From: a virus
Taxonomy: Duplodnaviria; Heunggongvirae; Uroviricota; Caudoviricetes
Strand: one strand, 5' to 3'
DNA: 11,110 bases
IMG/VR virus record: IMGVR_UViG_3300014970_000061
Part shown: piece after piece, positions 1 to 11,110 of the stretch
How the letters are laid out: every line of letters starts with the position of its first letter
Position numbering within the stretch: position 1 is the first letter of the stretch
Position numbers and translations under genes: made by a program
The notes under the pieces: generated by a model
What the model saw: the letters and a program-made list of their open reading frames with translations, nothing else
Databases searched by the model: none
Told to the model about the DNA's origin: nothing

Positions 1-60
1 ATGCCATTATTATATTTAAACACTAGAGAGTGTCGTTGGTATTTAATGGGGGAAGGTGAG

Positions 61-378
61 ATGAAAAAGATAGCTGCTATATCATTAATTAGTATTTTTA
101 TTATGTCTGGTTGTGCTGTGCATAATGATGAGACAAGTATCGGTAAATTTGGTCTTGCATATAAAAGTAATATTCAGCGTAAACTCGATAATCAATACTA
201 CACCGAAGCCGAAGCTTCTTTAGCCAGGGGCAGAATATCTGGTGCAGAAAATATAGTAAAAAATGATGCAGCCCATTTCTGTGTTACTCAGGGCAAAAAA
301 ATGCAGATAGTTGACCTGAAGACAGAAGGTGCAGGATTACATGGCGTCGCTCGTCTGACATTCAAATGTGGAGAGTGA
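61..378 (+). CDS. Putative lipoprotein (flanking gene, probably outside the prophage)
   Basis: ATG at 61 preceded by GGAAGG (51-56). N-terminus MKKIAAISLISIFIMSGC has a basic n-region, hydrophobic core and lipobox-like MSGC. Lies left of the att core, AT-rich. Start at 61 preferred over the longer ORF-track start at 1. Confidence 0.55.
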   Translation: MKKIAAISLISIFIMSGCAVHNDETSIGKFGLAYKSNIQRKLDNQYYTEAEASLARGRISGAENIVKNDAAHFCVTQGKKMQIVDLKTEGAGLHGVARLTFKCGE

Positions 379-536
379 GAATATTTTTTGGTAAGCATCA
401 AACATGCGCGTTCTGGTTGTGCTTAGCCGGAACCTGTGCGAGCACGATGCCGTTACGTGAAAGGCATCGTGCTATGAAGGGAGATTCTATCGATGTGGTC
501 AATGGAAGACGGTGACCAGGGATAGGGCTTATGCAT

Positions 537-563
537 AAAAAATAAGCCCGTGTAAGGGAGATT
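537..563. other. Attachment-site core (attL of the prophage / attP-type core), aaaaaataagcccgtgtaagggagatt
   Basis: 27-bp sequence matches my recollection of the phage P2 attP core. It lies 80 bp beyond the integrase stop, where P2 places attP. Leftward sequence is not P2 ogr, consistent with a prophage-host junction. Confidence 0.55.
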
Positions 564-642
564 TAGGGTGTCACCAGTAGGGGCTTTCAACGGTACAATG
601 CGGGTTTGAGCGGCATAAATTACCACTGAAAGCCCTTAAACG

Positions 643-1656
643 TTACTCTACTGTGGACACTGTGTGGACACTCTCGGCTTCAGTACCACCTCTTAGCGGA
701 TTAAGAGAAATGGCGTCCTGAAGGTACTCTGGCGCAAAATGAGCGTAAACCATAGTTTGCTCAATCCGCGTGTGACCTAGTATCCGTTGTAGTGTGATAA
801 TACTTCCTCCATTAATCATGAAATGAGTGGCAAAGCTGTGCCTTAGTGCATGTGTGGCTTGCCCCGTTGGCAAATCCGGTTTTATTGCTTTCATTGTTCG
901 TCTGAAGCGAGGGTAATCAGCATCAGGGAATAAAAAACCTCGTTTGTTATCCGCGATCATTTTGGCAACAGCCTCTGAGATCGGGACGGTGCGTGGTTTG
1001 TTTGTTTTCGTTTTAACAAACGTGACGCGGTTATGGATGATATTTTCTGCTTTCAAACGAGCTGCTTCTCCCCAACGTGCTCCTGTACTCAGGCAAAGAA
1101 TCGCAATCTTTTTATTGTCGCCGTCAAGTGCTGCAAGCAGTAAGGCAATTTCTTCCTGTGTGAGATAGCCTGTTTCTGGTTTTTCCTCCTTAAGCCTCTT
1201 TGTCCCTCTGATAGGGTGCTCACCAAAGAATAACTCCGCTTCAATCAGGGCTGTAAACATGCCGCTAATACATGTTAAATCACGATTGATACTCGAAGGT
1301 TTAATACCCTGACTTCTTCGGGTGGCGCAGTACTGGCTGATAAGGGATTTCGTGATTTGAAATGCGCATGGGTCATTCGTTATTTTTGTGAAGATTTCAA
1401 TTTTTCCAAGATTAGATTTCCCATGCTCTTCGTGTTTACCCTTTAAATCCCACCAGATCTGTGTCAGTTCCGACAGACGTCGTTTGTCTGTTGGTTTTGA
1501 TAGCCATTCTTTATTGTGGTGGTTGTACAACGTGTATTTTTCGAAAGCGACAGCTTCGCTTTTCTTATCAAACTTCCTACGGATGCGTTTTCCGTTACGT
1601 CCAGTAGGGCGGATGTCCACTTCATATCGACCATCATCGAGTTTTTTGATTGCCAT
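643..1656 (-). CDS. int: Tyrosine recombinase, P2-type integrase (337 aa)
   Basis: ORF 643..1656 with ATG at 1656-1654 and GGAGGG 7 nt upstream. C-terminal catalytic region has HALRHSFATHF, LGH and MVYAH (tyrosine nucleophile region), typical of phage integrases. Position next to the att core. Confidence 0.95.
   Translation of the reverse strand: MAIKKLDDGRYEVDIRPTGRNGKRIRRKFDKKSEAVAFEKYTLYNHHNKEWLSKPTDKRRLSELTQIWWDLKGKHEEHGKSNLGKIEIFTKITNDPCAFQITKSLISQYCATRRSQGIKPSSINRDLTCISGMFTALIEAELFFGEHPIRGTKRLKEEKPETGYLTQEEIALLLAALDGDNKKIAILCLSTGARWGEAARLKAENIIHNRVTFVKTKTNKPRTVPISEAVAKMIADNKRGFLFPDADYPRFRRTMKAIKPDLPTGQATHALRHSFATHFMINGGSIITLQRILGHTRIEQTMVYAHFAPEYLQDAISLNPLRGGTEAESVHTVSTVE
652..671. promoter_or_regulatory. 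Direct repeat TGTGGACAC x2 at 11-bp spacing (candidate integrase arm-type binding sites)
   Basis: tgtggacac at 652-660 and 663-671, one helical turn apart, inside the 3' end of int on the int-proximal arm. A one-mismatch copy tgtggtca lies at 494-501 on the other side of the core. Confidence 0.4.
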
Positions 1657-1771
1657 CAGAAAACCCTCCGAGTGGTACTTTTTTTTGCTACTACTAATCG
1701 CTTTTTTCGTGGTGGCTGAAATTTAGCCACCAATAGTAGGCACTTGTGATGAATATATTCACGATAAATTG

Positions 1772-2071
1772 TTAACCAGTCTTTTGACCGGAGTGGGGCG
1801 ACGTTGTTTCGTTTTGCCCAAAGTGTGCGAGAGCGGGCGCAATTTGCCCGGCTTCTGGAGCTACCTGATCAGTCATGAACCACAAAGTATATTTAGTAAA
1901 TCTGGGATGTTGTAAGACCTTCATTATGGCTTCAACTCCAGCGTTTTTTGACCGGCTCTCATAGCTCGAAAGTGAGCTGTAGGCTACACCAGTTAATTCA
2001 CTGAATTCTTTACGGTTTAACCTTTCAGATTCACGGATTAGCTTCAACTTCTCCGAAACGTCTATTGACAT
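1772..2071 (-). CDS. C: Immunity repressor C (99 aa)
   Basis: Internal ATG at 2071-2069 gives exactly 99 aa (MSIDVSEKLKLIRESERLNRKEFSELTGVAYSS... contains a helix-turn-helix-like segment). GGAG 5 nt upstream. Divergent from cox and upstream of int as in P2. The ORF-track start at 2143 is rejected. Confidence 0.85.
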   Translation of the reverse strand: MSIDVSEKLKLIRESERLNRKEFSELTGVAYSSLSSYESRSKNAGVEAIMKVLQHPRFTKYTLWFMTDQVAPEAGQIAPALAHFGQNETTSPHSGQKTG

Positions 2072-2192
2072 AATTACTCCGATTGCGTAATTTCTTGCTG
2101 ATAGTGTGAAATATTGTGCTTCTGGAGTTATCCTTTTAGGCAATAATTAGCCATTAGGAGCCATTAGAAGCACTAAGGGAGAATCGTAGCAG
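2072..2192. promoter_or_regulatory. Lysis-lysogeny switch region between C and cox (expected face-to-face Pe/Pc promoters and operators)
   Basis: 121-bp divergent intergenic region. TTGACA at 2065-2070 followed 17 bp later by TAATTT (2088-2093), a possible rightward early promoter. Tandem 10-bp direct repeat tagccattag/gagccattag at 2148-2167. Exact promoter and operator positions are not resolved. Confidence 0.45.
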
Positions 2193-2468
2193 ATGAATAG
2201 ACAGCTTGTAAGCGTGACTGATGCCGTGCCTTATCAGGAGTTTGCAAAACTCATTGGTAAAACTCCAAGAGCTGTAAGGGGCATGATTGAGAAAGGGAAA
2301 TTACCAGTTATTGAGATTACTGACCCTCAGTCAGTATCGGGGCGTGCTGGTGAATATTGGGTATACCTTCCGGCATGGAATAACGGACTAAAACTGGCTT
2401 ATGAAAGCCGTCCTAAAGAGATTCGTGACGGCTGGTTGATGTGGTTAGGTCTCGGTGAACCACGTTAA
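2193..2468 (+). CDS. cox: Cox: excisionase / repressor of the lysogenic promoter (91 aa)
   Basis: ATG at 2193 with AAGGGAGA upstream. 91 aa, first gene of the rightward early operon, directly opposite C, as in P2. Confidence 0.85.
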   Translation: MNRQLVSVTDAVPYQEFAKLIGKTPRAVRGMIEKGKLPVIEITDPQSVSGRAGEYWVYLPAWNNGLKLAYESRPKEIRDGWLMWLGLGEPR

Positions 2469-2478
2469 GGAGAACCGT

Positions 2479-2649
2479 ATGAATGAGCCTCGTTGTATTG
2501 CTCAGTTATTGCGTAACGAAAGCCCCAGGGCGATTGACTTCACCATCACCCACGGTAAGGGGCGTAAGGGAATCATTATCCGCACCAAAAAACAGAGTCC
2601 GTTAAAAAAGGCTCTGACCTTTCTGAAAAGCCGGAGGGTCTGGAAATGA
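2479..2649 (+). CDS. Small early-operon protein (P2 orf78-like position), 56 aa
   Basis: ATG at 2479 with AAGGAG 6 nt upstream. The ORF-track start at 2455 is a GTG. Stop overlaps the B start (ATGA at 2646-2649). Confidence 0.55.
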   Translation: MNEPRCIAQLLRNESPRAIDFTITHGKGRKGIIIRTKKQSPLKKALTFLKSRRVWK

Positions 2650-3146
2650 CAGTGATGACGCTCAATCTCGTTGAAAAACAGCCAGCAGCTATGCGCCGGA
2701 TAATTGGTAAGCATCTGGCCGTCCCTCGCTGGCAGGAGACATGCGATTATTATAATCAGATGATGGAACGCGAACGGCTAACGGTTTGCTTTCATGCGCA
2801 GTTAAAACAGCGTCACGCAACGATGCGTTTTGAAGAAATGAACGACGTCGAACGTGAACGGCTGGTTTGTGCAATTGATGAATTGCGTGGGGCATTCTCA
2901 AAACGCCGTCAGGTTGGTGCAAGTGAGTATGCATATATTAGCTTTTTAACTGTCAGTCAGCGCCGTACTTTATTTATGCACGCACGACTGACAGAAAAAG
3001 AATTTAACCAGCCATACTGGCGAATTAATGAAGAATCATGTTACTGGCGTGATGCTTTATTCCGTGCATTACGTGAATTATTCAGCCTGTTTGAGTATGC
3101 ACCGACAATTCTGACGTCGGTAAAACCAGAGCAATATCTGCATTAA
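2646..3146 (+). CDS. B: Replication protein B (helicase-loader-like), 166 aa
   Basis: ATG at 2646 with GGAGGG 7 nt upstream. 166 aa, matching the P2 B length and position between cox and A. Confidence 0.8.
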   Translation: MTVMTLNLVEKQPAAMRRIIGKHLAVPRWQETCDYYNQMMERERLTVCFHAQLKQRHATMRFEEMNDVERERLVCAIDELRGAFSKRRQVGASEYAYISFLTVSQRRTLFMHARLTEKEFNQPYWRINEESCYWRDALFRALRELFSLFEYAPTILTSVKPEQYLH

Positions 3147-3209
3147 ATAATTAACCAGAGTTTTTAACGCACTTAATCGTGCGGGGCTTCTTTTTGCCTG
3201 GAGAAAGTC

Positions 3210-3434
3210 ATGCATACAGTTTCTGAAAACAAGTGCGGTAAATACGCATTACTGCTGCAACAGGCCAGAGCCGAAGCACAGGCCGACGCAGCGACACGCT
3301 TTTCTTCTCATCTTGACGCCATGATTCGCCATATCACAAAGGCGGAGTTATCCCGCGTGGAGATAGTCGAGCTGCTCAGTCAGGAGTCGGAAAAATTTCA
3401 CAATATCGGATTGTCTCGCGGGGAGGTGCTTTGA
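3210..3434 (+). CDS. Small early-operon protein (P2 orf80-like), 74 aa
   Basis: ATG at 3210 with GGAGA upstream. Stop overlaps the next start (TGATG). Confidence 0.6.
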
Positions 3435-3733
3435 TGTCCTGTTCTCATTCAGTTGTATTACTGAATAACGCCTTAAAAATCGCCGTTATGAAAAATGGCG
3501 ATTTGTCTCTTATTCAACTTGGTCTTGATAAAGAAAAACGCGACATAACTGAATCTGTTATCGCGATTTATCAGAATGAATTAAACCTCCTGTCTGATGT
3601 GGTCAATTTACTTGTTAAACGCGCTGTATTCCACAAGCAAATTTCCTCAGTGGATGAACTGACAAAATTAACGACAGAACTTGCCAGTTATTGCGCTGAT
3701 GTATCCAGGAAACTTAACGATAAAAGGAGCTGA
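3434..3733 (+). CDS. Small early-operon protein (P2 orf81-like), 99 aa from the ATG
   Basis: ATG at 3434 overlapping the upstream stop, with GGGAGGTG 6 nt upstream. The ORF-track start at 3431 is TTG. Confidence 0.6.
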   Translation: MSCSHSVVLLNNALKIAVMKNGDLSLIQLGLDKEKRDITESVIAIYQNELNLLSDVVNLLVKRAVFHKQISSVDELTKLTTELASYCADVSRKLNDKRS

Positions 3734-3735
3734 TA

Positions 3736-3960
3736 ATGCCGGACAACGTAGATTTTATTCAGGAACAACAGGCTGAATTACTGGAGCGCCAGATTAACGC
3801 GGCAAGGGTAAAACATTGCGGTGCTTCTGCGCTGGTTTGCGAAGAGTGTGACGCGCCAATACCTGCTGCCCGTCGTGCGGCTTACCCGTCAGCCACGCGT
3901 TGTGTTTCCTGTCAGTCAGTCTTTGAAGCAAAAAACAAACATTACCGGAGAACGGCATGA
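3736..3960 (+). CDS. TraR/DksA-family C4 zinc-finger protein (P2 orf82-like), 74 aa
   Basis: CEEC ... CVSC four-cysteine motif (CxxC-x17-CxxC) characteristic of TraR/DksA zinc fingers. AAGGAG RBS. Stop overlaps the next start (ATGA at 3957-3960). Confidence 0.7.
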   Translation: MPDNVDFIQEQQAELLERQINAARVKHCGASALVCEECDAPIPAARRAAYPSATRCVSCQSVFEAKNKHYRRTA

Positions 3961-4232
3961 GTATTCGTATTGAAATTGGCGAACGTTATGTCGTTACCAG
4001 TGACAGCTTTCAGTTTATTCTCCACGAGAAAAAGAGAGCGGAAAGCGGTAAAAACGCCGGTCAGGAATGGCTGGCGGTGGTTGGTTATTACCCGAAATTA
4101 AGCCAGCTCGTTTCCGGCCTGATGCATCACGATATTCTGACCGGAAGCGCAAAGTCTTTTGCTGATTTAAACGCGCAGGTTGAGCAACTCAGCAAGCGTT
4201 GTTCAGAGGCTTTTGGCTCATATGGCCGTTAA
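3957..4232 (+). CDS. Small early-operon protein (P2 orf83-like), 91 aa
   Basis: ATG at 3957, translationally coupled to the upstream gene. 3' end overlaps the A start by 11 nt. Confidence 0.6.
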   Translation: MSIRIEIGERYVVTSDSFQFILHEKKRAESGKNAGQEWLAVVGYYPKLSQLVSGLMHHDILTGSAKSFADLNAQVEQLSKRCSEAFGSYGR

Positions 4233-6507
4233 AGCCTCCGGGCGTTTTGTCCCTCCGTCAGCATTTGCCGCAGGCACCGGTAAGACGTTTACCGGTGCTT
4301 ATGCGTGGAACGCGCCACGCGAGGCTGTCGGGCGCGAAAGACCCCTTACACGTGACGAGATGCGTCAGGTGCAAGGTGTTTTATCCACGATTAACCGCCT
4401 GCCTTACTTTTTGCGCTCGCTGTTTACTTCACGCTATGACTACATCCGGCGCAATAAAAGCCTGGTGCACGGGTTTTATTTCCTCACATCCACTTTTCAG
4501 CGTCGTTTATGGCCGCGCATTGAGCGTGTGAATCAGCGCCATGAAATGAACACCGACGCGTCGTTGCTGTTTCTGGCAGAGCGCGACCAGTATGCGCGCC
4601 TGCCGGGGATGAATGACAAGGAGCTGAAAAAGTTTGCCGCCCGAATCTCATCGCAGCTTTTCATGATGTATGAGGAACTCTGCGATGCCTGGGTGGATGC
4701 GCATGGCGAAAAAGAATCGCTGTTTACGGATGAGGCGCAGGCTCACCTGTATGGTCATGTTGCTGGCGCTGCACGTGCTTTCAATATTTCCCCGCTTTAC
4801 TGGAGAAAATACCGTAAAGGACAGATGACCACGAGGCAGGCATATTCTGCCATTGCCCGTCTGTTTAACGATGAGTGGTGGACTCATCAGCTTAAAGGCC
4901 AGCGTATGCGCTGGCATGAAGCGTTACTGATAGCTGTCGGGGAGGTTAATAAAGACCGCTCACCTTATGCCAGTAAACACGCCATTCGTGATGTGCGTGC
5001 ACGCCGCCAGGCAAATCTGGAATTTCTTAAATCGTGTGACCTTGAAAACAGGGAAACCGGCGAGCGCATCGACCTTATCAGTAAGGTGATGGGCAGTATT
5101 TCTAATCCTGAAATTCGCCGGATGGAGCTGATGAACACCATTGCCGGTATTGAGCGTTACGCTGCCGCAGAGGGTGATGTGGGGATGTTTATCACGCTGA
5201 CCGCGCCGTCAAAGTATCACCCGACACGTCAGGTCGGAAAAGGCGAAAGTAAAACCGTCCAGCTAAATCACGGCTGGAACGATGAGGCATTTAATCCAAA
5301 GGATGCGCAGCGTTATCTCTGCCGTATCTGGAGCCTGATGCGCACGGCATTCAAGGATAATGATTTACAGGTCTACGGTTTGCGTGTCGTCGAGCCACAC
5401 CACGACGGAACGCCGCACTGGCATATGATGCTTTTTTGTAATCCACGCCAGCGTAACCAGATTATCGAAATCATGCGTCGCTATGCGCTCAAAGAGGATG
5501 GTGACGAAAGAGGAGCCGCGCGAAACCGTTTTCAGGCAAAGCACCTTAACCGGGGCGGTGCTGCGGGATATATCGCGAAATACATTTCAAAAAATATCGA
5601 CGGCTATGCACTGGATGGTCAGCTCGATAACGATACCGGTAAGCCGCTTAAAGATACTGCCGCGGCTGTTACCGCATGGGCGTCAACGTGGCGCATCCCG
5701 CAATTTAAAACGGTTGGACTGCCGACAATGGGGGCTTACCGTGAACTACGCAAATTGCCTCGCGGCGTCAGTATTGCTGATGAGTTTGACGAACGCGTCG
5801 AGGCTGCTCGCGCTGCCGCAGACAGTGGTGATTTTGCGTTGTATATCAGCGCGCAGGGTGGGGCAAATGTCCCGCGCGATTGTCAGACTGTCAGGGTTGC
5901 CCGTAGCCCGTCGGATGACGTTAACGAGTACGAGGAAGAAGTCGAGAGAGTGGTCGGCATTTACGCGCCGCATCTCGGCGCGCGTCATATTCATATCACC
6001 AGAACGACGGACTGGCGCATTGTGCCGAAAGTTCCGGTCGTTGAGCCTTTGACTTTAAAAAGCGGCATCGCCGCGCCTCGGAGTCCTGTCAATAACTGTG
6101 GAAAGCTCACCGGCAGTGATACTTCGTTACCGGCTCCCACACCTTATGAACATGCCGCAGCCGTGCTTAATCTGGTTGATGACGGTGTTATCGAATGGAA
6201 TGAGCCAGAGGTCGTGAGGGCGCTCAGAGGTGCATTAAAACACGAACTGAGAACACCAAATCGTCAGCAGAGAAACGGAAGCCCGTTAAAACCACATGAA
6301 ATAGCGCCATCGGCCAGACTGACCCGGTCGGAACGAACGCAAATTACCCGTATCCGCGTTGACCTTGCTCAGAACGGTATCAGGCCGCAGCGATGGGAGC
6401 TTGAGGCGCTGGCGCGTGGCGCGACCGTAAATTATGACGGGAAAAAATTCACGTATCCGGTCGCTGATGAGTGGCCGGGATTCTCAACAGTAATGGAGTG
6501 GACATAA
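4222..6507 (+). CDS. A: Replication initiator A, HUH-superfamily rolling-circle endonuclease (761 aa)
   Basis: Internal ATG at 4222 gives 761 aa, matching P2 A. HUH metal-binding motif in PHWHMMLF. Paired catalytic tyrosines in YIAKYISK, as in phiX174 gpA (YVAKYVNK). In P2 the origin lies within A, but I could not pinpoint it here. Confidence 0.9.
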   Translation: MAVKASGRFVPPSAFAAGTGKTFTGAYAWNAPREAVGRERPLTRDEMRQVQGVLSTINRLPYFLRSLFTSRYDYIRRNKSLVHGFYFLTSTFQRRLWPRIERVNQRHEMNTDASLLFLAERDQYARLPGMNDKELKKFAARISSQLFMMYEELCDAWVDAHGEKESLFTDEAQAHLYGHVAGAARAFNISPLYWRKYRKGQMTTRQAYSAIARLFNDEWWTHQLKGQRMRWHEALLIAVGEVNKDRSPYASKHAIRDVRARRQANLEFLKSCDLENRETGERIDLISKVMGSISNPEIRRMELMNTIAGIERYAAAEGDVGMFITLTAPSKYHPTRQVGKGESKTVQLNHGWNDEAFNPKDAQRYLCRIWSLMRTAFKDNDLQVYGLRVVEPHHDGTPHWHMMLFCNPRQRNQIIEIMRRYALKEDGDERGAARNRFQAKHLNRGGAAGYIAKYISKNIDGYALDGQLDNDTGKPLKDTAAAVTAWASTWRIPQFKTVGLPTMGAYRELRKLPRGVSIADEFDERVEAARAAADSGDFALYISAQGGANVPRDCQTVRVARSPSDDVNEYEEEVERVVGIYAPHLGARHIHITRTTDWRIVPKVPVVEPLTLKSGIAAPRSPVNNCGKLTGSDTSLPAPTPYEHAAAVLNLVDDGVIEWNEPEVVRALRGALKHELRTPNRQQRNGSPLKPHEIAPSARLTRSERTQITRIRVDLAQNGIRPQRWELEALARGATVNYDGKKFTYPVADEWPGFSTVMEWT

Positions 6508-6959
6508 TGGCAAAAATTCACGAGGTAAAGCTGCACGCAAAATATTTCGACCTTGTGCTGGAAGGAAAGAAACGTGCAGAGTTCCGGAAAAATGACCGTA
6601 ATTATGAGCGCGGGGACACGTTGATTTTGTATGAATGGGTGCAGGGTGTGTATACGGGGCGAAATGTTGAAGCCCGGATAACAGATGTTACTGACCTGTC
6701 AGACTGGCTGGAAGATTATGTCTTGCTAAGTATTGAGCTGCTTAATACAGGCGCATATGAGATTGTGAACTGGAAAGAACTTAGTGAGCGTGGCCTGGTA
6801 TTCAGAATTAATCATGAAATTATGCATCAGCTCGGCCTTGCTGTTATGTATGAACCAGAGACGGGGATGTCTGGCGGGGCAATGGTTGCCACGGATGGAG
6901 CATGGAACTATTCAGATGAACAGATGGAGCGTGCACAGCAAAACGGGTGGCTTGGATAA
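6507..6959 (+). CDS. DUF3850/ASCH-like (PUA-fold) protein (P2 orf91-like position), 150 aa
   Basis: ATG at 6507 overlapping the A stop (TAATG). N-terminal KIHEVKLHAKYFDLVLEGKKRAEFRKNDRNYERGDTLILYEW resembles the DUF3850/ASCH motif (RKNDR). Domain call is from memory. Confidence 0.65.
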   Translation: MAKIHEVKLHAKYFDLVLEGKKRAEFRKNDRNYERGDTLILYEWVQGVYTGRNVEARITDVTDLSDWLEDYVLLSIELLNTGAYEIVNWKELSERGLVFRINHEIMHQLGLAVMYEPETGMSGGAMVATDGAWNYSDEQMERAQQNGWLG

Positions 6960-7165
6960 TGCACAGAATACCAGGCGAGATACCGCACCATAAAACTAAA
7001 AATATCAAGCTGATGGCTATTGTTCAGCGTTTACAGCGGATTATGGTCAACGAAAATCTGACGCCCGATGAGCTGGTCGGGTGTGCCGAAATAGTCCGGG
7101 ATAATTACGGGCGGTTTAACCATATCGGTCAGTCCAGAGTTGCGCCACCACAACGCAGACGATAG
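6959..7165 (+). CDS. Small hypothetical protein, 68 aa, coupled to the upstream gene
   Basis: ATG at 6959 overlapping the upstream stop (TAATG). Basic C-terminus (PPQRRR). No recognisable domain. Last ORF before the AT-rich cargo. Confidence 0.4.
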   Translation: MHRIPGEIPHHKTKNIKLMAIVQRLQRIMVNENLTPDELVGCAEIVRDNYGRFNHIGQSRVAPPQRRR

Positions 7166-7339
7166 AGAACGCCGCCAGTCGTGAAACTTGTTTTCAGGGC
7201 TGGCGGGGTTGAATAACGAGTGTCGCGAGGCGTTAGTTTGAGCTTACAATTAAACCTATTGAAAATTAATGAGAAGTCAATTTTATCTTTTTCTCGTTAA
7301 AGATGGCCACAACTACTAAAACGTGAGAATATCAAGACT

Positions 7340-7407
7340 TGGCAAAATCTAGCTTTTCCCAACGGGGTGTTTCGCTATAATACGCGGTCGGTTTTTAGGA
7401 GGGGTCA
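7340..7407 (+). promoter_or_regulatory. Candidate sigma70 promoter and RBS for the methyltransferase gene
   Basis: Perfect -10 hexamer TATAAT at 7376-7381 with a weak -35 (cttttc region). AGGAGG at 7397-7402, 5 nt before the ATG at 7408. Confidence 0.35.
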
Positions 7408-8346
7408 ATGCCAACTGTAGTTTCACTTTTTTCTGGATGTGGTGGTTCTGATGCGGGAGTTTTGAACGCAGGTTTCAATGTGCTTATGGCAAATGATATT
7501 TTGCCTTACGCAAGGGACGTTTACTTAGAAAACCATCCTGAAACTGACTACATTTTGGGCGATATCTCAGGGCTCCAGTCGTTCCCTTCTGCTGAGTTGC
7601 TCATCGGATGCTATCCTTGCCAAGGATTTAGTCAAGGTGGGGCAAGGAAGGCAGATAGAAAGATTAATACACTATATTTAGAGTTTGCCCGTGCTTTGAG
7701 TAAAATTAAGCCAAAAGCATTCATTGTAGAGAATGTCTCTGGTATGGTAAGGCGTAACTTTGAGCATTTATTAAAGGATCAATTCAAAGTTTTCGAAGAA
7801 GCAGGTTATACAGTAAGCTCGCAAATTCTGAATGCGTCCCATTATGGGGTATCCCAAGATAGGAAGCGAATCTTTATCGTAGGAATACGAAAGGACTACG
7901 GTATTACATACAAATTTCCAAAACCAACACATGGTGATGGTTTGACACCATATTCCACAATTCGTGATGCTATTGGGCATATGCCTGTTTGGCCTGTTGG
8001 CGAGTTTTATGACGCCGATTTTCATTGGTATTATCTATCGCGAAACCGTAGGCAAGATTGGGATCAGATATCTAAAACAATTGTTGCAAATCCTAGACAT
8101 ATGCCTCTACATCCAATAAGTCCAACATTAGAAAAATTGGGACCTGATAAGTGGCAATTTACTTCGGATGCACCAGCTCGTAGGTTTAGCTATCGAGAGG
8201 CTGCTATTTTACAAGGTTTTGGGGATTTAATTTTCCCAGAAACTGAACGGGCTTCTATTAATATGAAATATACTGTGGTAGGTAATGCAGTACCGCCTCC
8301 ATTGTTTGAGGCGGTTGCTAGAAACCTTCCAGATTTATGGGATTAA
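7408..8346 (+). CDS. DNA (cytosine-5)-methyltransferase, 312 aa
   Basis: Canonical C5-MTase motifs in order: motif I LFSGCGG (AdoMet binding), motif IV GCYPCQGFSQGG (catalytic Cys in PCQ), motif VI ENV (FIVENVSGM), motif VIII QDRKR, C-terminal VVGNAVPPPLFEAV. Small size implies a short target-recognition domain. Confidence 0.92.
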   Translation: MPTVVSLFSGCGGSDAGVLNAGFNVLMANDILPYARDVYLENHPETDYILGDISGLQSFPSAELLIGCYPCQGFSQGGARKADRKINTLYLEFARALSKIKPKAFIVENVSGMVRRNFEHLLKDQFKVFEEAGYTVSSQILNASHYGVSQDRKRIFIVGIRKDYGITYKFPKPTHGDGLTPYSTIRDAIGHMPVWPVGEFYDADFHWYYLSRNRRQDWDQISKTIVANPRHMPLHPISPTLEKLGPDKWQFTSDAPARRFSYREAAILQGFGDLIFPETERASINMKYTVVGNAVPPPLFEAVARNLPDLWD

Positions 8347-9368
8347 GCAGCGATCGCGCTGGAAGGATCAAGGATGATATCTAGATAGCTAATATTTTGA
8401 CTGTGATCAATATTATCAGATGCTCTGGTTAAATTGATTAATCTTAGGCGATCAACAAAAATAGCATCGCCTAACTTATTTTTATGCGCCCACTCACCAT
8501 CTATCCATCGTAGATCTTGAGGTAAGAAATAATAAGTTGCCCATCGGTGAGCTACGGGGAATTTACTGTAGAGCATCGCAGGTGAGGCCTCAAGCTGCTT
8601 CGCTTCCCACTCTTCTTGAGAACAGCCACACTGAACAAAAGAAATAGGGATGGCATCTCGTTGATCTCCCATTGGATGCCAGGCAATTATGTCAAGGCCT
8701 CCGTCACCACTATTTCCTCGACTGAAATCTCGTTCTTTGAAGTTCGCTGTGCAACGGATATCGGAAGCAATACTCTTAAATTTATTATATAGAGTTCCAG
8801 TGTAAGGGGCCGCTTGACCACCAGAAGCCCAGCATGCTTTTATTATGCTACCGCTAGGCATTAGGCTTTCAAAAATAGGTAAACTAATTAGTTCAAAACT
8901 GCGCGTTATCTCTCTTCTGCTCATTATGTTGACATATTTTATGTTAGCACAGATTAGTAAAGCTAAATATAGTCTTTCTAAATGTTCCAGTGGCTTTTCT
9001 GATATATCACGTAACTCTACAGTATCGTTGTCTTCTGATAAAGTAAAAGGGTAACTATCCCCAAATAAATCAATGCGTTGTCGTATGAAGCCTATCGCAT
9101 AGCTCCACTTTCTGTCAGTATATGCTCGACTAACACTTCGTTTTGTTCTCTTGCGTACAGGCGTATCATTTTCATCATCAACATCATAAACGCCCTCTTC
9201 TTCTGCTTCATCTGTTTCAGCTAGTACTGCTTCGGGTTGAGCTTGCAGTGTGCTATATAGGTCTCCTCGACTGAATGACCTGTCGATATTAGTTAAGGCC
9301 AATATCTCAATATAATCAGCCCATAAATAAGGCTCATTAGAAGGCATTGAATCAAGATTTGTAATCAT
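8343..9368 (-). CDS. Uncharacterized protein with a possible Mrr-like PD-(D/E)xK nuclease signature, about 341 aa (start uncertain)
   Basis: Long minus-strand ORF whose stop overlaps the MTase stop (TTAA at 8343-8346). GDGGLDIIAW followed about 20 aa later by FVQCGCSQEEWEAK resembles the GDGGID ... (V/I)QxK core of Mrr-type nucleases, but with Gly where the Lys is expected. Acidic then basic linker (ETDEAEEEGVYDVDDENDTP / VRKRTKRSVSR). In-frame starts at 9452, 9380 and 9368; 9368 chosen because GGAGG lies 12 nt upstream and it sits 4 nt after the upstream stop. Confidence 0.7.
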   Translation of the reverse strand: MITNLDSMPSNEPYLWADYIEILALTNIDRSFSRGDLYSTLQAQPEAVLAETDEAEEEGVYDVDDENDTPVRKRTKRSVSRAYTDRKWSYAIGFIRQRIDLFGDSYPFTLSEDNDTVELRDISEKPLEHLERLYLALLICANIKYVNIMSRREITRSFELISLPIFESLMPSGSIIKACWASGGQAAPYTGTLYNKFKSIASDIRCTANFKERDFSRGNSGDGGLDIIAWHPMGDQRDAIPISFVQCGCSQEEWEAKQLEASPAMLYSKFPVAHRWATYYFLPQDLRWIDGEWAHKNKLGDAIFVDRLRLINLTRASDNIDHSQNISYLDIILDPSSAIAA

Positions 9369-9372
9369 AATC

Positions 9373-10446
9373 TCAATCATCCTCCCTTTTGCTTCTGATC
9401 TGATTTCTAATATTTTTTGACATCTCAAAAATTTCAGATGCAGCCTCTTCATGCTCTAATGTTAATTCTTTAGCTTTAAGTAGCATATCCCAAACTACTC
9501 TTAATTTAACACTAGCTGCGTTTAGTGCTTTATCTAATGCTTCTCTTTCTCCGCTGGTATATAGATATGCTTCATCCAAGTTTGAACTTTTCATGAGAAT
9601 TTCAATTGCTTCGGGTTTCTCAACCACTGCTGCAATATCTTTTATTCTTCGAGACTCACCGATGATGGTTCTACCTTGTTGGTCAGGCACAAAAAACCAA
9701 GAGAATAAACGCTTAAGGTTTTCTTCATTTAAATTTGGGTCTAAAAAATCCTTTTTATCCTGTAGACCTAACCAGTTTGTGATTTTTGAATATCCCAAAG
9801 CTGTGGTTATATATGAAAATTCCACGTCAGAAGCCTTCATGGGTAAATTAAAAAACTCATGGTCATGCGCGACTTCATATAAGTTCAGTGCAGTGAGAAG
9901 TGTTGCAACATAATGTGGTTTACTCCCAATCTCACGAGCCAGATTTTTTAATACTATCTCTTTAGGCTCATGTGAATAAAAAGTATCACATAACTCTTTA
10001 AGGTATTTGGCTTTAGATAATGAGTCCCATTCTTTGACCCCAGTTATATGACGATAACCGATATATCTCAGTACATCCTCTCGGTTTTCATAAATGATGC
10101 AGGGAAGCTTCTTAGGTTTATTGGTAGTATCATCAATGATTTCTTGCACACCTTTAAGTTTTCTTTTTGGAGGAAGCAGATCTCCATTGAGCAACTTTAC
10201 AGCAGCTAAGCGTCTGTTTCCCTCAACCACGATGTAGTTTCCATTGCTTTTTACTGCCAATAAAGGTTCTCCAGGAAAGTAACCTTGCTGACCGATTGAT
10301 AGCATTAGATCGTGGACACTTTCGTCATCTAACATTTCCTCAATGACTGTTGCAGCGTTACTGGCATCATTGAGACGAAAGAAACGTGGGTTTTTAGGGT
10401 CAAAATCAAGCTTATTTGTCTCAATTTCTACGATTTTGTTATCCAT
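9373..10446 (-). CDS. ParB/Srx-superfamily (ParB N-terminal domain) protein, 357 aa from the ATG at 10446
   Basis: N-terminus MDNKIVEIETNKLDFDPKNPRFF ... LMLSIGQQGYFPGEPLLAVKSNGNYIVVEGNRRLAAVKLL parallels the ParB N-terminal domain (I..L..P.NPR box and GxRRxxA arginine patch). GAGG 5 nt upstream of the ATG at 10446. Longer ORF-track start at 10578 lacks an RBS. C-terminal 250 aa has no motif I recognise. Confidence 0.8.
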   Translation of the reverse strand: MDNKIVEIETNKLDFDPKNPRFFRLNDASNAATVIEEMLDDESVHDLMLSIGQQGYFPGEPLLAVKSNGNYIVVEGNRRLAAVKLLNGDLLPPKRKLKGVQEIIDDTTNKPKKLPCIIYENREDVLRYIGYRHITGVKEWDSLSKAKYLKELCDTFYSHEPKEIVLKNLAREIGSKPHYVATLLTALNLYEVAHDHEFFNLPMKASDVEFSYITTALGYSKITNWLGLQDKKDFLDPNLNEENLKRLFSWFFVPDQQGRTIIGESRRIKDIAAVVEKPEAIEILMKSSNLDEAYLYTSGEREALDKALNAASVKLRVVWDMLLKAKELTLEHEEAASEIFEMSKNIRNQIRSKREDD

Positions 10447-10673
10447 CTTAACCTCATGGGATGATGTAAATATCTTTTGGGGGATGCTTGATAAAACATC
10501 CATATTTGATCGTTTGCAGCGCATTTGATACATCGAAGTGTACAAAAATGCTGGGCATAACTCTGCATTAAAATGCATTCACATTCAAAGAACTATTTTC
10601 TCGTTGGACATTTAGCCCAAGAGAGTTTGGACGGCTTTTGGAATTGCATCAAAACCGACCCATGAAGCGGGCG

Positions 10674-10692
10674 GGCGAGGCGGGGAAAGCAC
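10674..10692. other. Phage cohesive-end site (cos), ggcgaggcggggaaagcac
   Basis: 19-nt sequence matches my recollection of the P2 cohesive end. GC-rich, and located between the last right-arm gene and the first late gene, as expected in a prophage. Confidence 0.65.
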
Positions 10693-10834
10693 TGCGCGCT
10701 GGCGGTGGTGCTGATTTTATTTTTTCAGCGTCTGAGCGCGTCGTGATGGCGTTTAGTCGGCCTGCCGGGGCGTTGGTGTGTCTGCGGGGTGTTTTGTACA
10801 GTGGCGAACGTGTGAGGGCGTGATGACGGGGTGT

Positions 10835-10856
10835 AAAAAAGCCGCCCGCAGGCGGC
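10835..10856 (-). terminator. Rho-independent terminator for the minus-strand late gene
   Basis: On the minus strand: GCCGCC-tgcg-GGCGGC hairpin (plus 10841-10856) followed by TTTTTT (complement of the A6 run at 10835-10840), a few nt downstream of the stop at 10862. Confidence 0.55.
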
Positions 10857-10861
10857 GATGT

Positions 10862-11110
10862 TCAGCCGTTGTCAGTGTCCAGTGAGTAGTTTTTAAATCG
10901 GATGACCTCCTGACCGAGCCAGCCGTTTATCTCGCGGATCCTGTCCTGTAACGGGATAAGCTCATTGCGGACAAAGACCTTTGCTACTTTCTCAATATCG
11001 CCCAGCGACCCGACGTTCTCCGGTTTGCCGCCCATCTGCGTATTACCGTGAAGGAGATCGGTGAGTAACATCGATGGAGATCGGTTCGTGTCACTTTCAC
11101 AGAACCGTTT
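10862..11110 (-). CDS. 3' end of a late gene, probably capsid portal protein Q (partial; 5' end beyond the window)
   Basis: Minus-strand ORF ending at 10862, about 170 bp from cos, presumably open to the window edge. In P2 the first gene after cos is Q on the opposite strand. Identity is by synteny only. Confidence 0.5.
   Translation of the reverse strand, partial: KRFCESDTNRSPSMLLTDLLHGNTQMGGKPENVGSLGDIEKVAKVFVRNELIPLQDRIREINGWLGQEVIRFKNYSLDTDNG

What the first reader, a model, noticed from the sequence alone, without database searches (positions are those of the whole stretch)
378..671. Prophage-host junction: att core, arm-type direct repeats and a strong hairpin in the flank
The core (537..563) is followed on the int side by two TGTGGACAC repeats at 11-bp spacing (652..671), with a near-copy at 494..501 on the other side. 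This is the layout expected for integrase arm-type sites flanking a core. Further left, a perfect 11-bp-stem inverted repeat (agcacgatgcc / ggcatcgtgct, 441..473) has no U-run. It could terminate the lipoprotein gene, or be a protein-binding site or a host repeat. Sequence left of the core does not encode P2 ogr, so this is an integrated copy, and the insertion locus (next to a small lipoprotein gene) may be an unusual integration site.
Basis: partly seen in the sequence, partly recalled or inferred. Interest (0 to 1): 0.4.

Follow-up and report, generated by a model that had tools for sequence, protein, structure and literature searches.

The report
P2 prophage left junction at cyaR
This is the ordinary, well-studied left junction (attL) of a P2-type prophage sitting in E. 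coli's standard P2 landing site next to the small-RNA gene cyaR; the one mild surprise is that the "host" side of the junction looks like the worn-down remains of an even older phage of the same family.

Summary
The 27-mer at 537..563 is identical to the phage P2 attP core. Bases 564..700 are 99.4% identical to the P2 P' arm. The two TGTGGACA repeats (652, 663) are the annotated Int P'-arm site, and the integrase is 336/337 identical to P2 Int. So this is a P2-type attL (B-O-P').

The integration site is not unusual. It is between yegR and the sRNA gene cyaR, where K-12 keeps its P2 remnant, and I take it to be P2's primary site, locI. The core is the last 27 nt of the cyaR terminator. The same junction occurs in 814 of 5426 complete E. 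coli genomes. In a genome with an identical junction, a second core lies 33.1 kb away, beside ogr, the P arm and an intact cyaR.

The hairpin (441..473) and the near-copy TGTGGTCA (494..501) are chromosomal DNA, also present in non-lysogens. The near-copy is not chance: 491..520 is homologous to the P2 P arm. Together with a phage-186-like right-end fragment (383..431), and synteny in other genera, this suggests the yegR-cyaR spacer is a ghost of an older P2-family prophage. The hairpin lacks a T-run and its function is unresolved.

The parts
61..378 (+). yegR, a small chromosomal lipoprotein gene (105 aa) that flanks the junction
   Evidence: Annotated as yegR / lipoprotein YegR under the match in E. 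coli genomes. No Pfam family.
379..536 (.). Bacterial-side arm (B) of attL: DNA also present in non-lysogens between yegR and the cyaR terminator
   Evidence: The query 379..563 (this arm plus the core) is found in 5399 of 5426 genomes, median one place per genome. It is contiguous with cyaR in the empty site of strain CI5.
383..431 (+). Fossil of the cos-proximal right end of a phage-186-type genome (inferred)
   Evidence: 36/49 identity to the 186 right end, score 38 against shuffles 15.7 +/- 2.4, 0 of 1000 reach it. The homologous spacer of another Escherichia lineage (L008) matches 186 bases 30560-30623 of 30624 in a database-wide search (E = 1e-3), with local score 70 and 0 of 1000 shuffles.
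441..473 (.). Perfect 11-bp-stem hairpin with an 11-nt loop; chromosomal, its region single copy, no T-run; function unresolved
   Evidence: Loop variants are GTTACGTGAAA, GATAAGTGAAA and AATAAGTGAAA. In the strains aligned the stem is unchanged apart from one G-C to G-U change. It lies where the window-type and L008-type spacers diverge.
491..520 (+). Fossil P arm: tcgaTGTGGTCAatgGAAGACGgtgaccag against P2 tcgaTGTGGTCAatgTGTGGACgtgaccag. The first Int arm repeat is intact, the second is decayed, and the IHF-site spacer is shortened by about 16 nt.
   Evidence: Less decayed alleles exist: L019 has 12 nt more, and L235 and L008 keep a longer, P2-like spacer. L008's flank matches P2 24311-24382 at 83.8%, E = 1e-10.
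525..549 (.). 8-bp inverted repeat GGGCTTAT / ATAAGCCC spanning the B arm and the left half of the core
   Evidence: I4. Present in empty sites too. Significance not tested.
537..563 (+). 27-bp att core (O), the crossover region. On the minus strand it is an orphan copy of the last 27 nt of the cyaR terminator.
   Evidence: Identical to the P2 attP core 24356-24382. It overlaps the 3' end of Rfam CyaR_RyeE in the empty site and at attR.
580..653 (.). Cox (excision directionality factor) binding region, with opposed cox-box-like arms at 578-595 and 621-638
   Evidence: Maps to the P2 record's protein_bind Cox 24399-24472. The sequence is identical to P2 here. Inverted repeat I1. Six cox-boxes facing both ways in attP are described in PMC3936717.
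651..677 (+). P' arm Int arm-type binding site, with direct repeats TGTGGACA at 652..659 and 663..670, overlapping the last codons of int
   Evidence: Maps to the P2 record's protein_bind Int 'P' arm' 24470-24496. Exact repeats. The consensus tgTGGaCa for P2-type arm sites is given in PMC3448106.
643..1656 (-). int, a P2 tyrosine integrase
   Evidence: 337 aa, 336/337 identical to P2 Int. Pfam Int_N plus Phage_integrase.
1772..2071 (-). C immunity repressor, heteroimmune to P2
   Evidence: 99 aa, 65% identical to P2 C; HTH_3.
2193..2468 (+). cox, the excision directionality factor and Pc repressor
   Evidence: Pfam Phage_Cox, E = 1.7e-42. 84% identical to P2 Cox, with nearly all the differences in the N-terminal half.

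Best explanation
Region 378..671 is attL (B-O-P') of a P2-type prophage integrated in the yegR-cyaR spacer, the locus I take to be E. coli's primary P2 attachment site, locI.

**How it works (from P2 genetics and biochemistry, not tested here).** Int is a heterobivalent tyrosine recombinase. Its N-terminal domain binds the two TGTGGACA arm repeats (652..670). Its core-binding and catalytic domains act on the 27-bp core (537..563). Integration recombined the phage attP (ogr - P arm - IHF site - core - Cox region - P' arm - int) with the identical 27 bp at the 3' end of cyaR. This rebuilt an intact cyaR at attR and left an orphan core copy here. Excision needs this attL, the distant attR, Int, IHF and Cox. 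Cox coats and bends the 580..653 region so that arm-bound Int reaches the core.

**The chromosomal side.** Bases 379..536 are ordinary E. coli DNA, also found in non-lysogens. They are probably themselves a relic of an older P2-family prophage. I take the hairpin (441..473) to be part of that relic. At most it acts as a 3' structure on yegR transcripts. It is not a canonical terminator.
For: **Shown by tools**
- The core is identical to the P2 attP core, and 564..700 matches P2 with a single mismatch over the aligned stretch (99.4% over 536..700).
- The P2 record annotates Int core, Cox, and Int P'-arm binding sites at the corresponding positions.
- Int is 336/337 identical to P2 Int, and Cox and C are present.
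- The left flank is yegR, and the same flank joins directly to cyaR in empty sites.
- The identical junction occurs in 814 of 5426 genomes.
- In strain H14 a second exact core lies 33,098 bp downstream, preceded by ogr and a P2-like P arm and IHF region, and overlapped by an intact CyaR.
- K-12 has the same left flank, a truncated core, a D' fragment, ogrK, a P arm, a core and cyaR.
- The fossil P arm scores 38, with 0 of 2000 shuffles reaching it.
- Graded alleles of the fossil exist.
- L008's flank matches the P2 P arm, IHF site and core with E = 1e-10, and the 186 right end with E = 1e-3.

**From the literature**
- Arm-site consensus tgTGGaCa, and the statement that Int dimers bind a core and two arm sequences in attP (PMC3448106).
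- Cox boxes, and Cox filament formation at attP and attL (PMC3936717).
Against: - attR is outside the 11.1-kb window, so the second core of this particular prophage was not seen. The evidence comes from a surrogate genome.
- No binding or excision data exist for this element.
- Its Cox differs from P2 Cox at 15 of 91 residues, nearly all in the N-terminal half, while the Cox region in attL is P2-identical. Whether the pair is matched is unknown.
- The 'older prophage' reading rests on short, decayed similarities. The 186-like match of the window itself is only 36/49.
- The name locI and the primary P2 att papers (Yu et al. 1989; Barreiro & Haggard-Ljungquist 1992; Yu & Haggard-Ljungquist 1993) come from my own knowledge. 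They were not held in the library and could not be read.
Confidence: 0.95

Rival explanations
1. The junction marks an unusual or secondary P2 integration site next to a lipoprotein gene.
For: The flanking gene yegR is small and poorly characterised, and nothing in the window itself names the locus.
Against: The same junction is in 814 of 5426 complete E. coli genomes. The core is 27/27 identical to attP, and empty sites carry it at the cyaR 3' end. K-12's known P2 remnant (ogrK plus a D fragment) sits at this exact locus.
Confidence: 0.02
2. The TGTGGTCA at 494..501 is a working arm-type Int site of the present prophage, so that attL carries arm sites on both sides of the core like an attP.
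For: The octamer is identical to the first repeat of the P2 P arm, and it lies in a 15-nt stretch (491..505) identical to P2. The 23-nt stretch TCGATGTGGTCAATGGAAGACGG is unchanged in 87 of the 90 prophage-flank contigs that had a core downstream.
Against: - It lies in DNA that non-lysogens also have.
- The second repeat is destroyed (GGAAGACG for TGTGGACG).
- The stretch corresponding to P2's IHF-site region is about 16 nt shorter and no longer resembles it.
- The prophage's real P arm is at attR in the surrogate genome.
- The low variation fits the overall low divergence of E. coli and is not evidence of selection.
Confidence: 0.1
3. The similarity between the host arm and the P2 P arm exists because an ancestor of P2 picked up host DNA by aberrant excision, rather than because the host carries a phage fossil.
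For: Aberrant excision from this orientation could in principle place yegR-side DNA next to ogr. The homology itself does not give a direction.
Against: - P arms of the same design, some with ogr upstream, flank cyaR in contigs whose core variant and YegQ identity indicate other genera.
- In the outgroup contigs whose flank shows no P-arm similarity, the yegS start codon lies about 80-120 bp from the cyaR 3' end.
- E. coli alleles form a decay series: L235 (longer spacer), then L019 (12 nt longer than the window), then the window type.
- The spacer also holds a 186-type right-end fragment, and a decayed core lies at the syntenic left boundary.
Confidence: 0.08
4. The hairpin 441..473 is a functional RNA element: a T-run-less terminator or 3'-end stabiliser for the yegR mRNA (plus strand), or for int read-through transcripts (minus strand).
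For: It is a strong, perfect stem (-24.6 kcal/mol on the plus strand, -21.8 on the minus strand, z about -4.3 to -4.8). It lies 63 nt after the yegR stop codon. In the E. coli strains aligned, the stem sequence is unchanged while three loop positions vary.
Against: - No T-run follows on either strand, the 11-nt loop is long for a terminator, and the terminator scan does not call it.
- No Rfam family matches.
- The only change seen in the stem is one G-C to G-U substitution, with no compensatory double changes.
- By my estimate from the alignment, only about 1.6 stem changes would be expected by chance between the two haplotypes, so stem invariance is not informative.
- Another Escherichia lineage has an unrelated sequence at this position.
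- From memory, and not checked here: K-12 transcribes yegR together with the downstream yegZ, which would imply read-through.
Confidence: 0.3

Closest known systems
Phage P2 attP / attL with the Int-IHF-Cox site-specific recombination system (NC_001895 features 24293-24496)
   Same: The 27-bp core is identical. The Cox region and the P' arm with its two TGTGGACA repeats are identical to P2. The int 3' end overlaps the P' arm in the same way, and Int is 99.7% identical.
   Different: This is the integrated form, so the P arm and IHF site are replaced by chromosomal DNA. The rest of the prophage is a mosaic: C is 65% and Cox 84% identical to P2, and from 2478 onward it is Wphi-like.
E. coli K-12 cryptic P2 remnant at the same locus (yegR - D' (yegZ) - ogrK - cyaR)
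   Same: Same chromosomal site and same left flank, including the hairpin and the fossil P arm. K-12 keeps a partial left core (window-equivalent 537..554) and a full attR.
   Different: In K-12 everything from the middle of the left core to within gene D is deleted. Here the left junction is intact, with int, C, cox and the early genes.
Integration of temperate elements into the 3' end of small stable RNA genes (phage 186 in a tRNA-Ile gene, Fels-2 and SopE-phi in ssrA, the sdsR locus in Salmonella)
   Same: The phage core duplicates the terminal part of an RNA gene, so the gene is rebuilt after insertion. Here that part is the descending terminator stem and U-tail of CyaR. General statements are in PMC3448106 and PMC3333887.
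   Different: The target is an Hfq-dependent sRNA terminator rather than a tRNA or tmRNA. PMC3448106 describes P2-type integrases as mostly using sites between genes. My recollection that the cyaR overlap has been noted in the sRNA literature could not be verified here.
Lambda attL (B-O-P') and 'grounded' or decayed prophages at reused att sites
   Same: A heterobivalent Int with arm-type and core-type sites, and a directionality factor acting between the core and one arm. Remnants of earlier occupants are left next to the reused core.
   Different: In the P2 system the directionality-factor site lies in the int-side junction (attL). The relic here is reduced to about 30 nt of P arm plus about 50 nt of a cos-proximal fragment.

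Membership tests
P2-type att site (P2 Int/Cox/IHF recombination module) | 27-bp common core shared by attP, attB, attL and attR | tested here: met
   537..563 is identical to the P2 attP core and to the empty-site sequence. There are two exact copies 33.1 kb apart in a genome with the identical junction.
P2-type att site (P2 Int/Cox/IHF recombination module) | Arm-type Int sites: at least two direct repeats of tgTGGaCa on the int side (P' arm) | tested here: met
   Exact TGTGGACA at 652 and 663, the only exact copies in the window. They coincide with the P2 'Int P' arm' feature. Consensus from PMC3448106.
P2-type att site (P2 Int/Cox/IHF recombination module) | Adjacent P2-type tyrosine integrase gene reading toward the core | tested here: met
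   ORF 643..1656 (minus strand), 336/337 identical to P2 Int, with Pfam Int_N plus Phage_integrase.
P2-type att site (P2 Int/Cox/IHF recombination module) | Cox-binding region with multiple cox-boxes between the core and the P' arm | tested here: met
   580..653 is identical in sequence to the P2 region annotated as Cox-bound. A pattern scan for cox-boxes alone was too degenerate to be informative.
P2-type att site (P2 Int/Cox/IHF recombination module) | P arm with two Int repeats and an IHF site at the other junction (attR), next to ogr | not testable with these tools
   attR lies outside the 11.1-kb window. In the surrogate strain H14 the attR matches P2's ogr terminator, P arm, IHF region and core.
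P2-type att site (P2 Int/Cox/IHF recombination module) | Physical binding of Int, IHF and Cox, and recombination activity | not testable with these tools
   Requires EMSA or footprinting and excision assays. Inferred only from sequence identity to footprinted P2 DNA.
CyaR (RyeE) sRNA gene, Rfam RF00112 | Full-length match to the covariance model above the gathering score | tested here: not met
   No CyaR hit in window 1..2400 even at E <= 10. Only the terminal 27 nt are present. Full CyaR (100.7 bits) lies at empty sites and at attR.
Intrinsic (Rho-independent) terminator, for the hairpin 441..473 | G+C-rich stem, short loop, and a following T-run | tested here: not met
   The stem is present, but the loop is 11 nt and there is no T-run on either strand. 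The scan does not call it.
Dispersed chromosomal repeat (REP/BIME, ERIC and similar), for the hairpin | Many copies per genome | tested here: not met
   The region 379..563 has a median of one place per genome and at most two. No Rfam hit.

The most novel reading that the evidence does not exclude
The bacterial arm of the yegR-cyaR P2 attachment site (which I take to be locI) is not original host DNA. The roughly 800-bp segment between yegS and cyaR, including the gene yegR, would be the ghost of an older P2-family prophage, and yegR would be its last surviving cargo gene, occupying the position of phage 186 orf97 just before cos. The present prophage would therefore be nested in the attR of its predecessor.

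**Support**
- A fossil P arm at 491..520, with less decayed alleles in other lineages.
- A 186-type right-end fragment immediately after yegR.
- In outgroup Enterobacteriaceae contigs whose flank shows no P-arm similarity, the yegS start codon lies only about 80-120 bp from the cyaR 3' end and there is no yegR.
- An 18/27 decayed core sits at exactly the syntenic left boundary, in the yegS-yegR intergenic region outside the window. Only 31 of 2000 shuffles reach 18/27 anywhere in that region.

**Against**
- No phage in the collection encodes a YegR homologue.
- yegR homologues in contigs labelled Klebsiella sp. and Cedecea lie in ordinary chromosomal contexts.
- The alignment of the left boundary to the P2 core plus P' arm is not significant on its own (99 of 1000 shuffles reach it).
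Probability: 0.55. Interest if true: 0.35.

Novelty: already known. Interest (0 to 1): 0.15.

Why it matters
For annotation, the exact left boundary of the prophage is the core at 537..563. The arm repeats, the Cox region and the int 3' end form one functional attL. The lysogen keeps an intact cyaR at the other end, and an orphan 27-nt terminator fragment remains here.

The finding itself adds nothing to what is known of P2 recombination.

The side result is of modest evolutionary interest. If E. coli's preferred P2 landing pad is itself an attR-like relic, reused attachment sites accumulate layers of phage debris. That debris can mimic arm sites, which is a trap both for human readers and for automated att-site callers. 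It would also mean that a conserved chromosomal gene (yegR) may have a prophage origin.

Tried and rejected
- **Rfam on window 1..2400 at E <= 10** returned only three chance-level hits and nothing at 378..671.
- **Sensitive blastn of the host arm (379..545) against 50,697 phage records** found only two records, and both include chromosomal flank: a prophage-derived 'phage' record and the 'Phage TP' remnant. No free phage carries the hairpin or the window-type arm.
- **A scan of IMG/VR for the hairpin** matched 91 contigs. In 90 of them the att core lies about 51-75 nt downstream of the hairpin, and the hairpin usually lies within a few hundred bases of an end of the fetched stretch, as expected for prophage predictions that run into this flank. 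None placed the hairpin inside a phage genome.
- **The 10-mer AAGGGAGATT** occurs at 477..486 and again inside the core at 554..563. I considered it a third core relic. I rejected this as probably chance, because the K-12 haplotype reads AAGGAGGATT and the rest of the core does not align.
- **Covariation in the hairpin:** apart from one G-C to G-U change the stem does not vary in the strains sampled, so there is no evidence either way.
- **The cox-box consensus scan** was too permissive to be informative: 344 hits against 312 expected.
- **yegR as phage cargo:** tblastn against the phage collection found no homologue outside records that include host flank. yegR relatives in other genera are not in prophages.
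- **Similarity of the host arm to the prophage's own (Wphi-type) or P2's right end** is not significant (77 of 1000 and 733 of 1000 shuffles reach it). Only the 186-type right end matches.
- **Literature:** the primary P2 att papers and the CyaR papers I recalled are not in the held library. Searches found no statement on P-arm homology in attB or on a phage origin of yegR.
Full report
**1. The observation.**
- The 27-mer AAAAAATAAGCCCGTGTAAGGGAGATT occupies 537..563 and is unique in the window even with three mismatches allowed.
- TGTGGACAC occurs at 652..660 and 663..671, 11 bp apart. These are the only exact TGTGGACA octamers on either strand of the 11.1-kb window.
- TGTGGTCA is at 494..501. 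As a bare one-mismatch hit it is not remarkable: 12 such hits against 7.3 expected.
- The inverted repeat agcacgatgcc/ggcatcgtgct (441..451 and 463..473) forms a perfect 11-bp stem with an 11-nt loop. Its folding energy is -24.6 kcal/mol (z = -4.3), and no T-run follows on either strand.

**2. What the junction is.** From base 536 rightward the window is 99.4% identical to phage P2.
- In the alignment, the core and everything to its right up to 700 match P2 attP with a single mismatch.
- The P2 reference record annotates these bases as the Int core site (window 537..564), the Cox-bound region (580..653), the Int P' arm (651..677), and the 3' end of int from 643.
- The ORF 643..1656 on the minus strand encodes a protein 336/337 identical to P2 Int, with Int_N and Phage_integrase domains.
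- Downstream come a C-type repressor and a Cox protein.
- The literature gives tgTGGaCa as the arm-site consensus of P2-type integrases (PMC3448106).
- It also describes six cox-boxes in attP facing both ways, with Cox filament formation at attP and attL (PMC3936717).
- The region is therefore attL (B-O-P') of a P2-type prophage.

**3. Where it is integrated.**
- Left of the core the window is chromosomal. Bases 61..378 are yegR, and 1..563 are found in essentially every E. coli genome (5418 of 5426).
- In strains without the prophage, the same left flank runs through the 27-mer straight into the sRNA gene cyaR on the opposite strand.
- The core covers the last 24 modelled nucleotides of CyaR, that is the descending terminator stem and the first part of the U-tail, plus three more T residues.
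- The site is not unusual. A 261-nt probe spanning the junction is covered at 80% or more in 814 of 5426 complete genomes.
- K-12 carries its known P2 remnant (D', ogrK, P arm, core) at this same locus.
- From my own knowledge this is the primary P2 site, locI. The primary papers were not held in the library.

**4. The other junction.** attR is beyond the window. In strain H14, whose junction is 100% identical, there is a 33-kb P2-like prophage. A second exact core lies 33,098 bp downstream. It is preceded by ogr, the ogr terminator and a P2-type P arm and IHF region, and it is overlapped by a full-scoring CyaR.

**5. The 'near-copy' and the rest of the bacterial arm.**
- The near-copy is not part of this prophage's att, because the DNA carrying it is present in non-lysogens.
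- It is still not accidental. Window 491..520 (tcgatgtggtcaatggaagacggtgaccag) aligns with the P2 P arm (tcgatgtggtcaatgtgtggacgtgaccag). The score is 38 against shuffles of 14.9 +/- 2.2, and 0 of 2000 shuffles reach it.
- The first Int repeat is intact, the second is mutated, and the spacer that holds the IHF site in P2 is about 16 nt shorter.
- Other alleles are less decayed. Strain 50579417 keeps 12 more nucleotides of spacer. A metagenomic E. coli-like contig (L235) keeps a spacer about 20 nt longer, of P2-like length. A second Escherichia lineage (L008) has a flank matching P2 24311-24382 (end of the P arm, IHF site, core) at 83.8%, E = 1e-10.
- I scanned metagenome contigs for the cyaR terminator and classified the 120 loci returned. 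Every contig with a yegR hit (38) carried the fossil (alignment score 33-38 against the P2 P arm). About 20 contigs had a P2-type attR with ogr at about -326. Most contigs from other genera (YegQ roughly 90-96% identical) showed no P-arm similarity.

**6. A wider relic (partly outside the finding).**
- Immediately after yegR, window 383..431 resembles the extreme right end of phage 186, next to cos: 36/49 identity, and 0 of 1000 shuffles reach the score.
- In L008 this homology is stronger and runs to the last bases of the 186 genome (database-wide E = 1e-3; local score 70).
- In outgroup contigs whose flank shows no P-arm similarity, the yegS start codon lies only about 80-120 bp from the cyaR 3' end. 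The roughly 800 bp that hold yegR and these fossils therefore look like an insertion at the P2 att site, seen here only in Escherichia.
- At the syntenic left boundary, E. coli has a decayed core: AAAAAGTCAGTTCAAGTATGGAGGATT, 18/27. Only 31 of 2000 shuffles reach 18/27 anywhere in that intergenic region. It is conserved across strains.
- The simplest reading is that the yegS-cyaR spacer is the ghost of an older P2-family prophage in the same orientation as the present one.
- On that reading yegR stands where 186 carries orf97, just before cos.
- This remains an inference. No phage in the collection encodes a YegR homologue. yegR relatives in other genera lie in non-phage contexts. The P'-like alignment at the left boundary is not significant on its own.

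**7. The hairpin.**
- It belongs to the chromosomal arm, its region occurs once per genome, and it matches no Rfam family.
- It is not a canonical intrinsic terminator: the loop is 11 nt and there is no T-run.
- In the E. coli strains sampled the stem sequence is unchanged apart from one G-C to G-U change, and three loop positions vary.
- By my estimate from the alignment, the haplotypes differ by only about 7%, so an unchanged 22-nt stem is not evidence of selection.
- L008 has a 186-like cos-proximal sequence at this position instead, so the hairpin lies inside the variable, relic part of the spacer.
- My ranking is: a relic without a dedicated function (about 0.5), a 3'-end structure on yegR or int read-through transcripts (about 0.3), and other roles such as protein binding (about 0.2, within which a binding site is the least supported).

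**8. How it works.** This rests on P2 biochemistry and on sequence identity, not on tests made here.
- Int bound to the TGTGGACA repeats and to the core, together with Cox on 580..653 and the IHF-bent P arm at attR, assembles the excisive complex.
- Strand exchange within the 27-bp core restores attP and the cyaR-linked attB.
- One open point is that Cox here is only 84% identical to P2 Cox. Nearly all the changes are in the N-terminal half, while its target in attL is P2-identical.

**9. Verdict.** The finding is a correct recognition of a textbook structure with one wrong inference (the 'unusual site'). As a feature it is already known, and I score it low. The layered-relic reading of the bacterial arm is the only part that might be new. 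I could find no mention of it in the searchable literature, but the key older P2 papers could not be read.

Noticed in passing
window 564..11110: The prophage is a mosaic. att and int are P2-identical. C (65% identity) and Cox (84%) belong to a different immunity type. From 2478 to 10673 the DNA is about 98% identical to phage Wphi and relatives, and Wphi is listed in PMC3448106 as having its own identified integration site. No complete E. coli genome in the collection holds the whole window as one place covering 80% or more of it.
   Followed up: partly
window 7408..10578: The cargo region between gene A and cos holds three ORFs. One is a C-5 cytosine methyltransferase (7408..8346, plus strand). 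The other two overlap on the minus strand. The 401-aa ORF (9373..10578) matches PADLOC PD-Lambda-5_A and PDC-M38A models. The 369-aa ORF (8343..9452) has no Pfam or PADLOC family. This is possibly a PD-Lambda-5-like defence pair in the P2 old/tin hotspot.
   Followed up: partly
window 10674..10692: An exact P2-family 19-nt cohesive-end sequence, GGCGAGGCGGGGAAAGCAC, lies here. The window therefore runs from attL across the whole early/right arm of the phage genome to cos, plus about 400 bp beyond it.
   Followed up: yes
window 2193..2468 against 580..653: Cox differs from P2 Cox at 15 of 91 residues, nearly all in the N-terminal half, while the Cox-binding region in attL is P2-identical. Whether this Cox still drives excision at this attL is an open question.
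   Followed up: no
window 378/379; L021, L005 and L008 downstream of the yegR stop codon: Some E. coli lineages (for example ATCC 25922 and the host of phage record 720R8) and the L008 lineage carry about 170-200 extra bases between the yegR stop codon and TTTTTTGGTAAGC. The window type lacks them. Metagenome contigs show both spacings, with yegR at -482 or -652 from the cyaR-terminator match.
   Followed up: partly
L002 2234..2260 (E. coli CI5, yegS-yegR intergenic region, about 250 bp left of the window start): A decayed att-core-like 27-mer, AAAAAGTCAGTTCAAGTATGGAGGATT (18/27), lies at the position where the core lies in the outgroup contig L119. It is followed by a weak P'-arm-like stretch and is conserved in the E. 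coli strains checked.
   Followed up: partly
L168 and L212 (metagenome contigs, YegS about 85% and YegQ 96% identical to E. coli): Another lineage has a different island of about 1.9 kb between yegS and cyaR, ending in a degenerate P-arm-like sequence (…TGTGATCAATGTTTGGATG…TTTCATTGAATTACGCGT + core). In L168 it contains a 110-aa ORF and a 138-aa ORF of unknown function. From the sequences alone, the first looks like a membrane protein and the second like a secretion chaperone. This suggests independent phage ghosts at the same cyaR site.
   Followed up: partly
L148, L165, L171, L187, L228, L234 (metagenome contigs): P2-type P arms with core variants (AAGCCTGCG… and AAGCCCGCG…) flank cyaR in contigs whose core variant, and YegQ identity where available, point to other enterobacterial genera. 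L234 has ogr at -327, and L187 has ogr about 1.1 kb away. P2-type phages thus seem to use the cyaR terminator in several genera, with a core sequence matching the local cyaR terminator.
   Followed up: no
L024 (E. coli ETEC4088): In this strain the yegR flank is joined, after only 51 bases of the spacer, to a truncated phage virion-morphogenesis gene and to baseplate genes. This is a different deletion derivative of a P2-like prophage at this locus.
   Followed up: no
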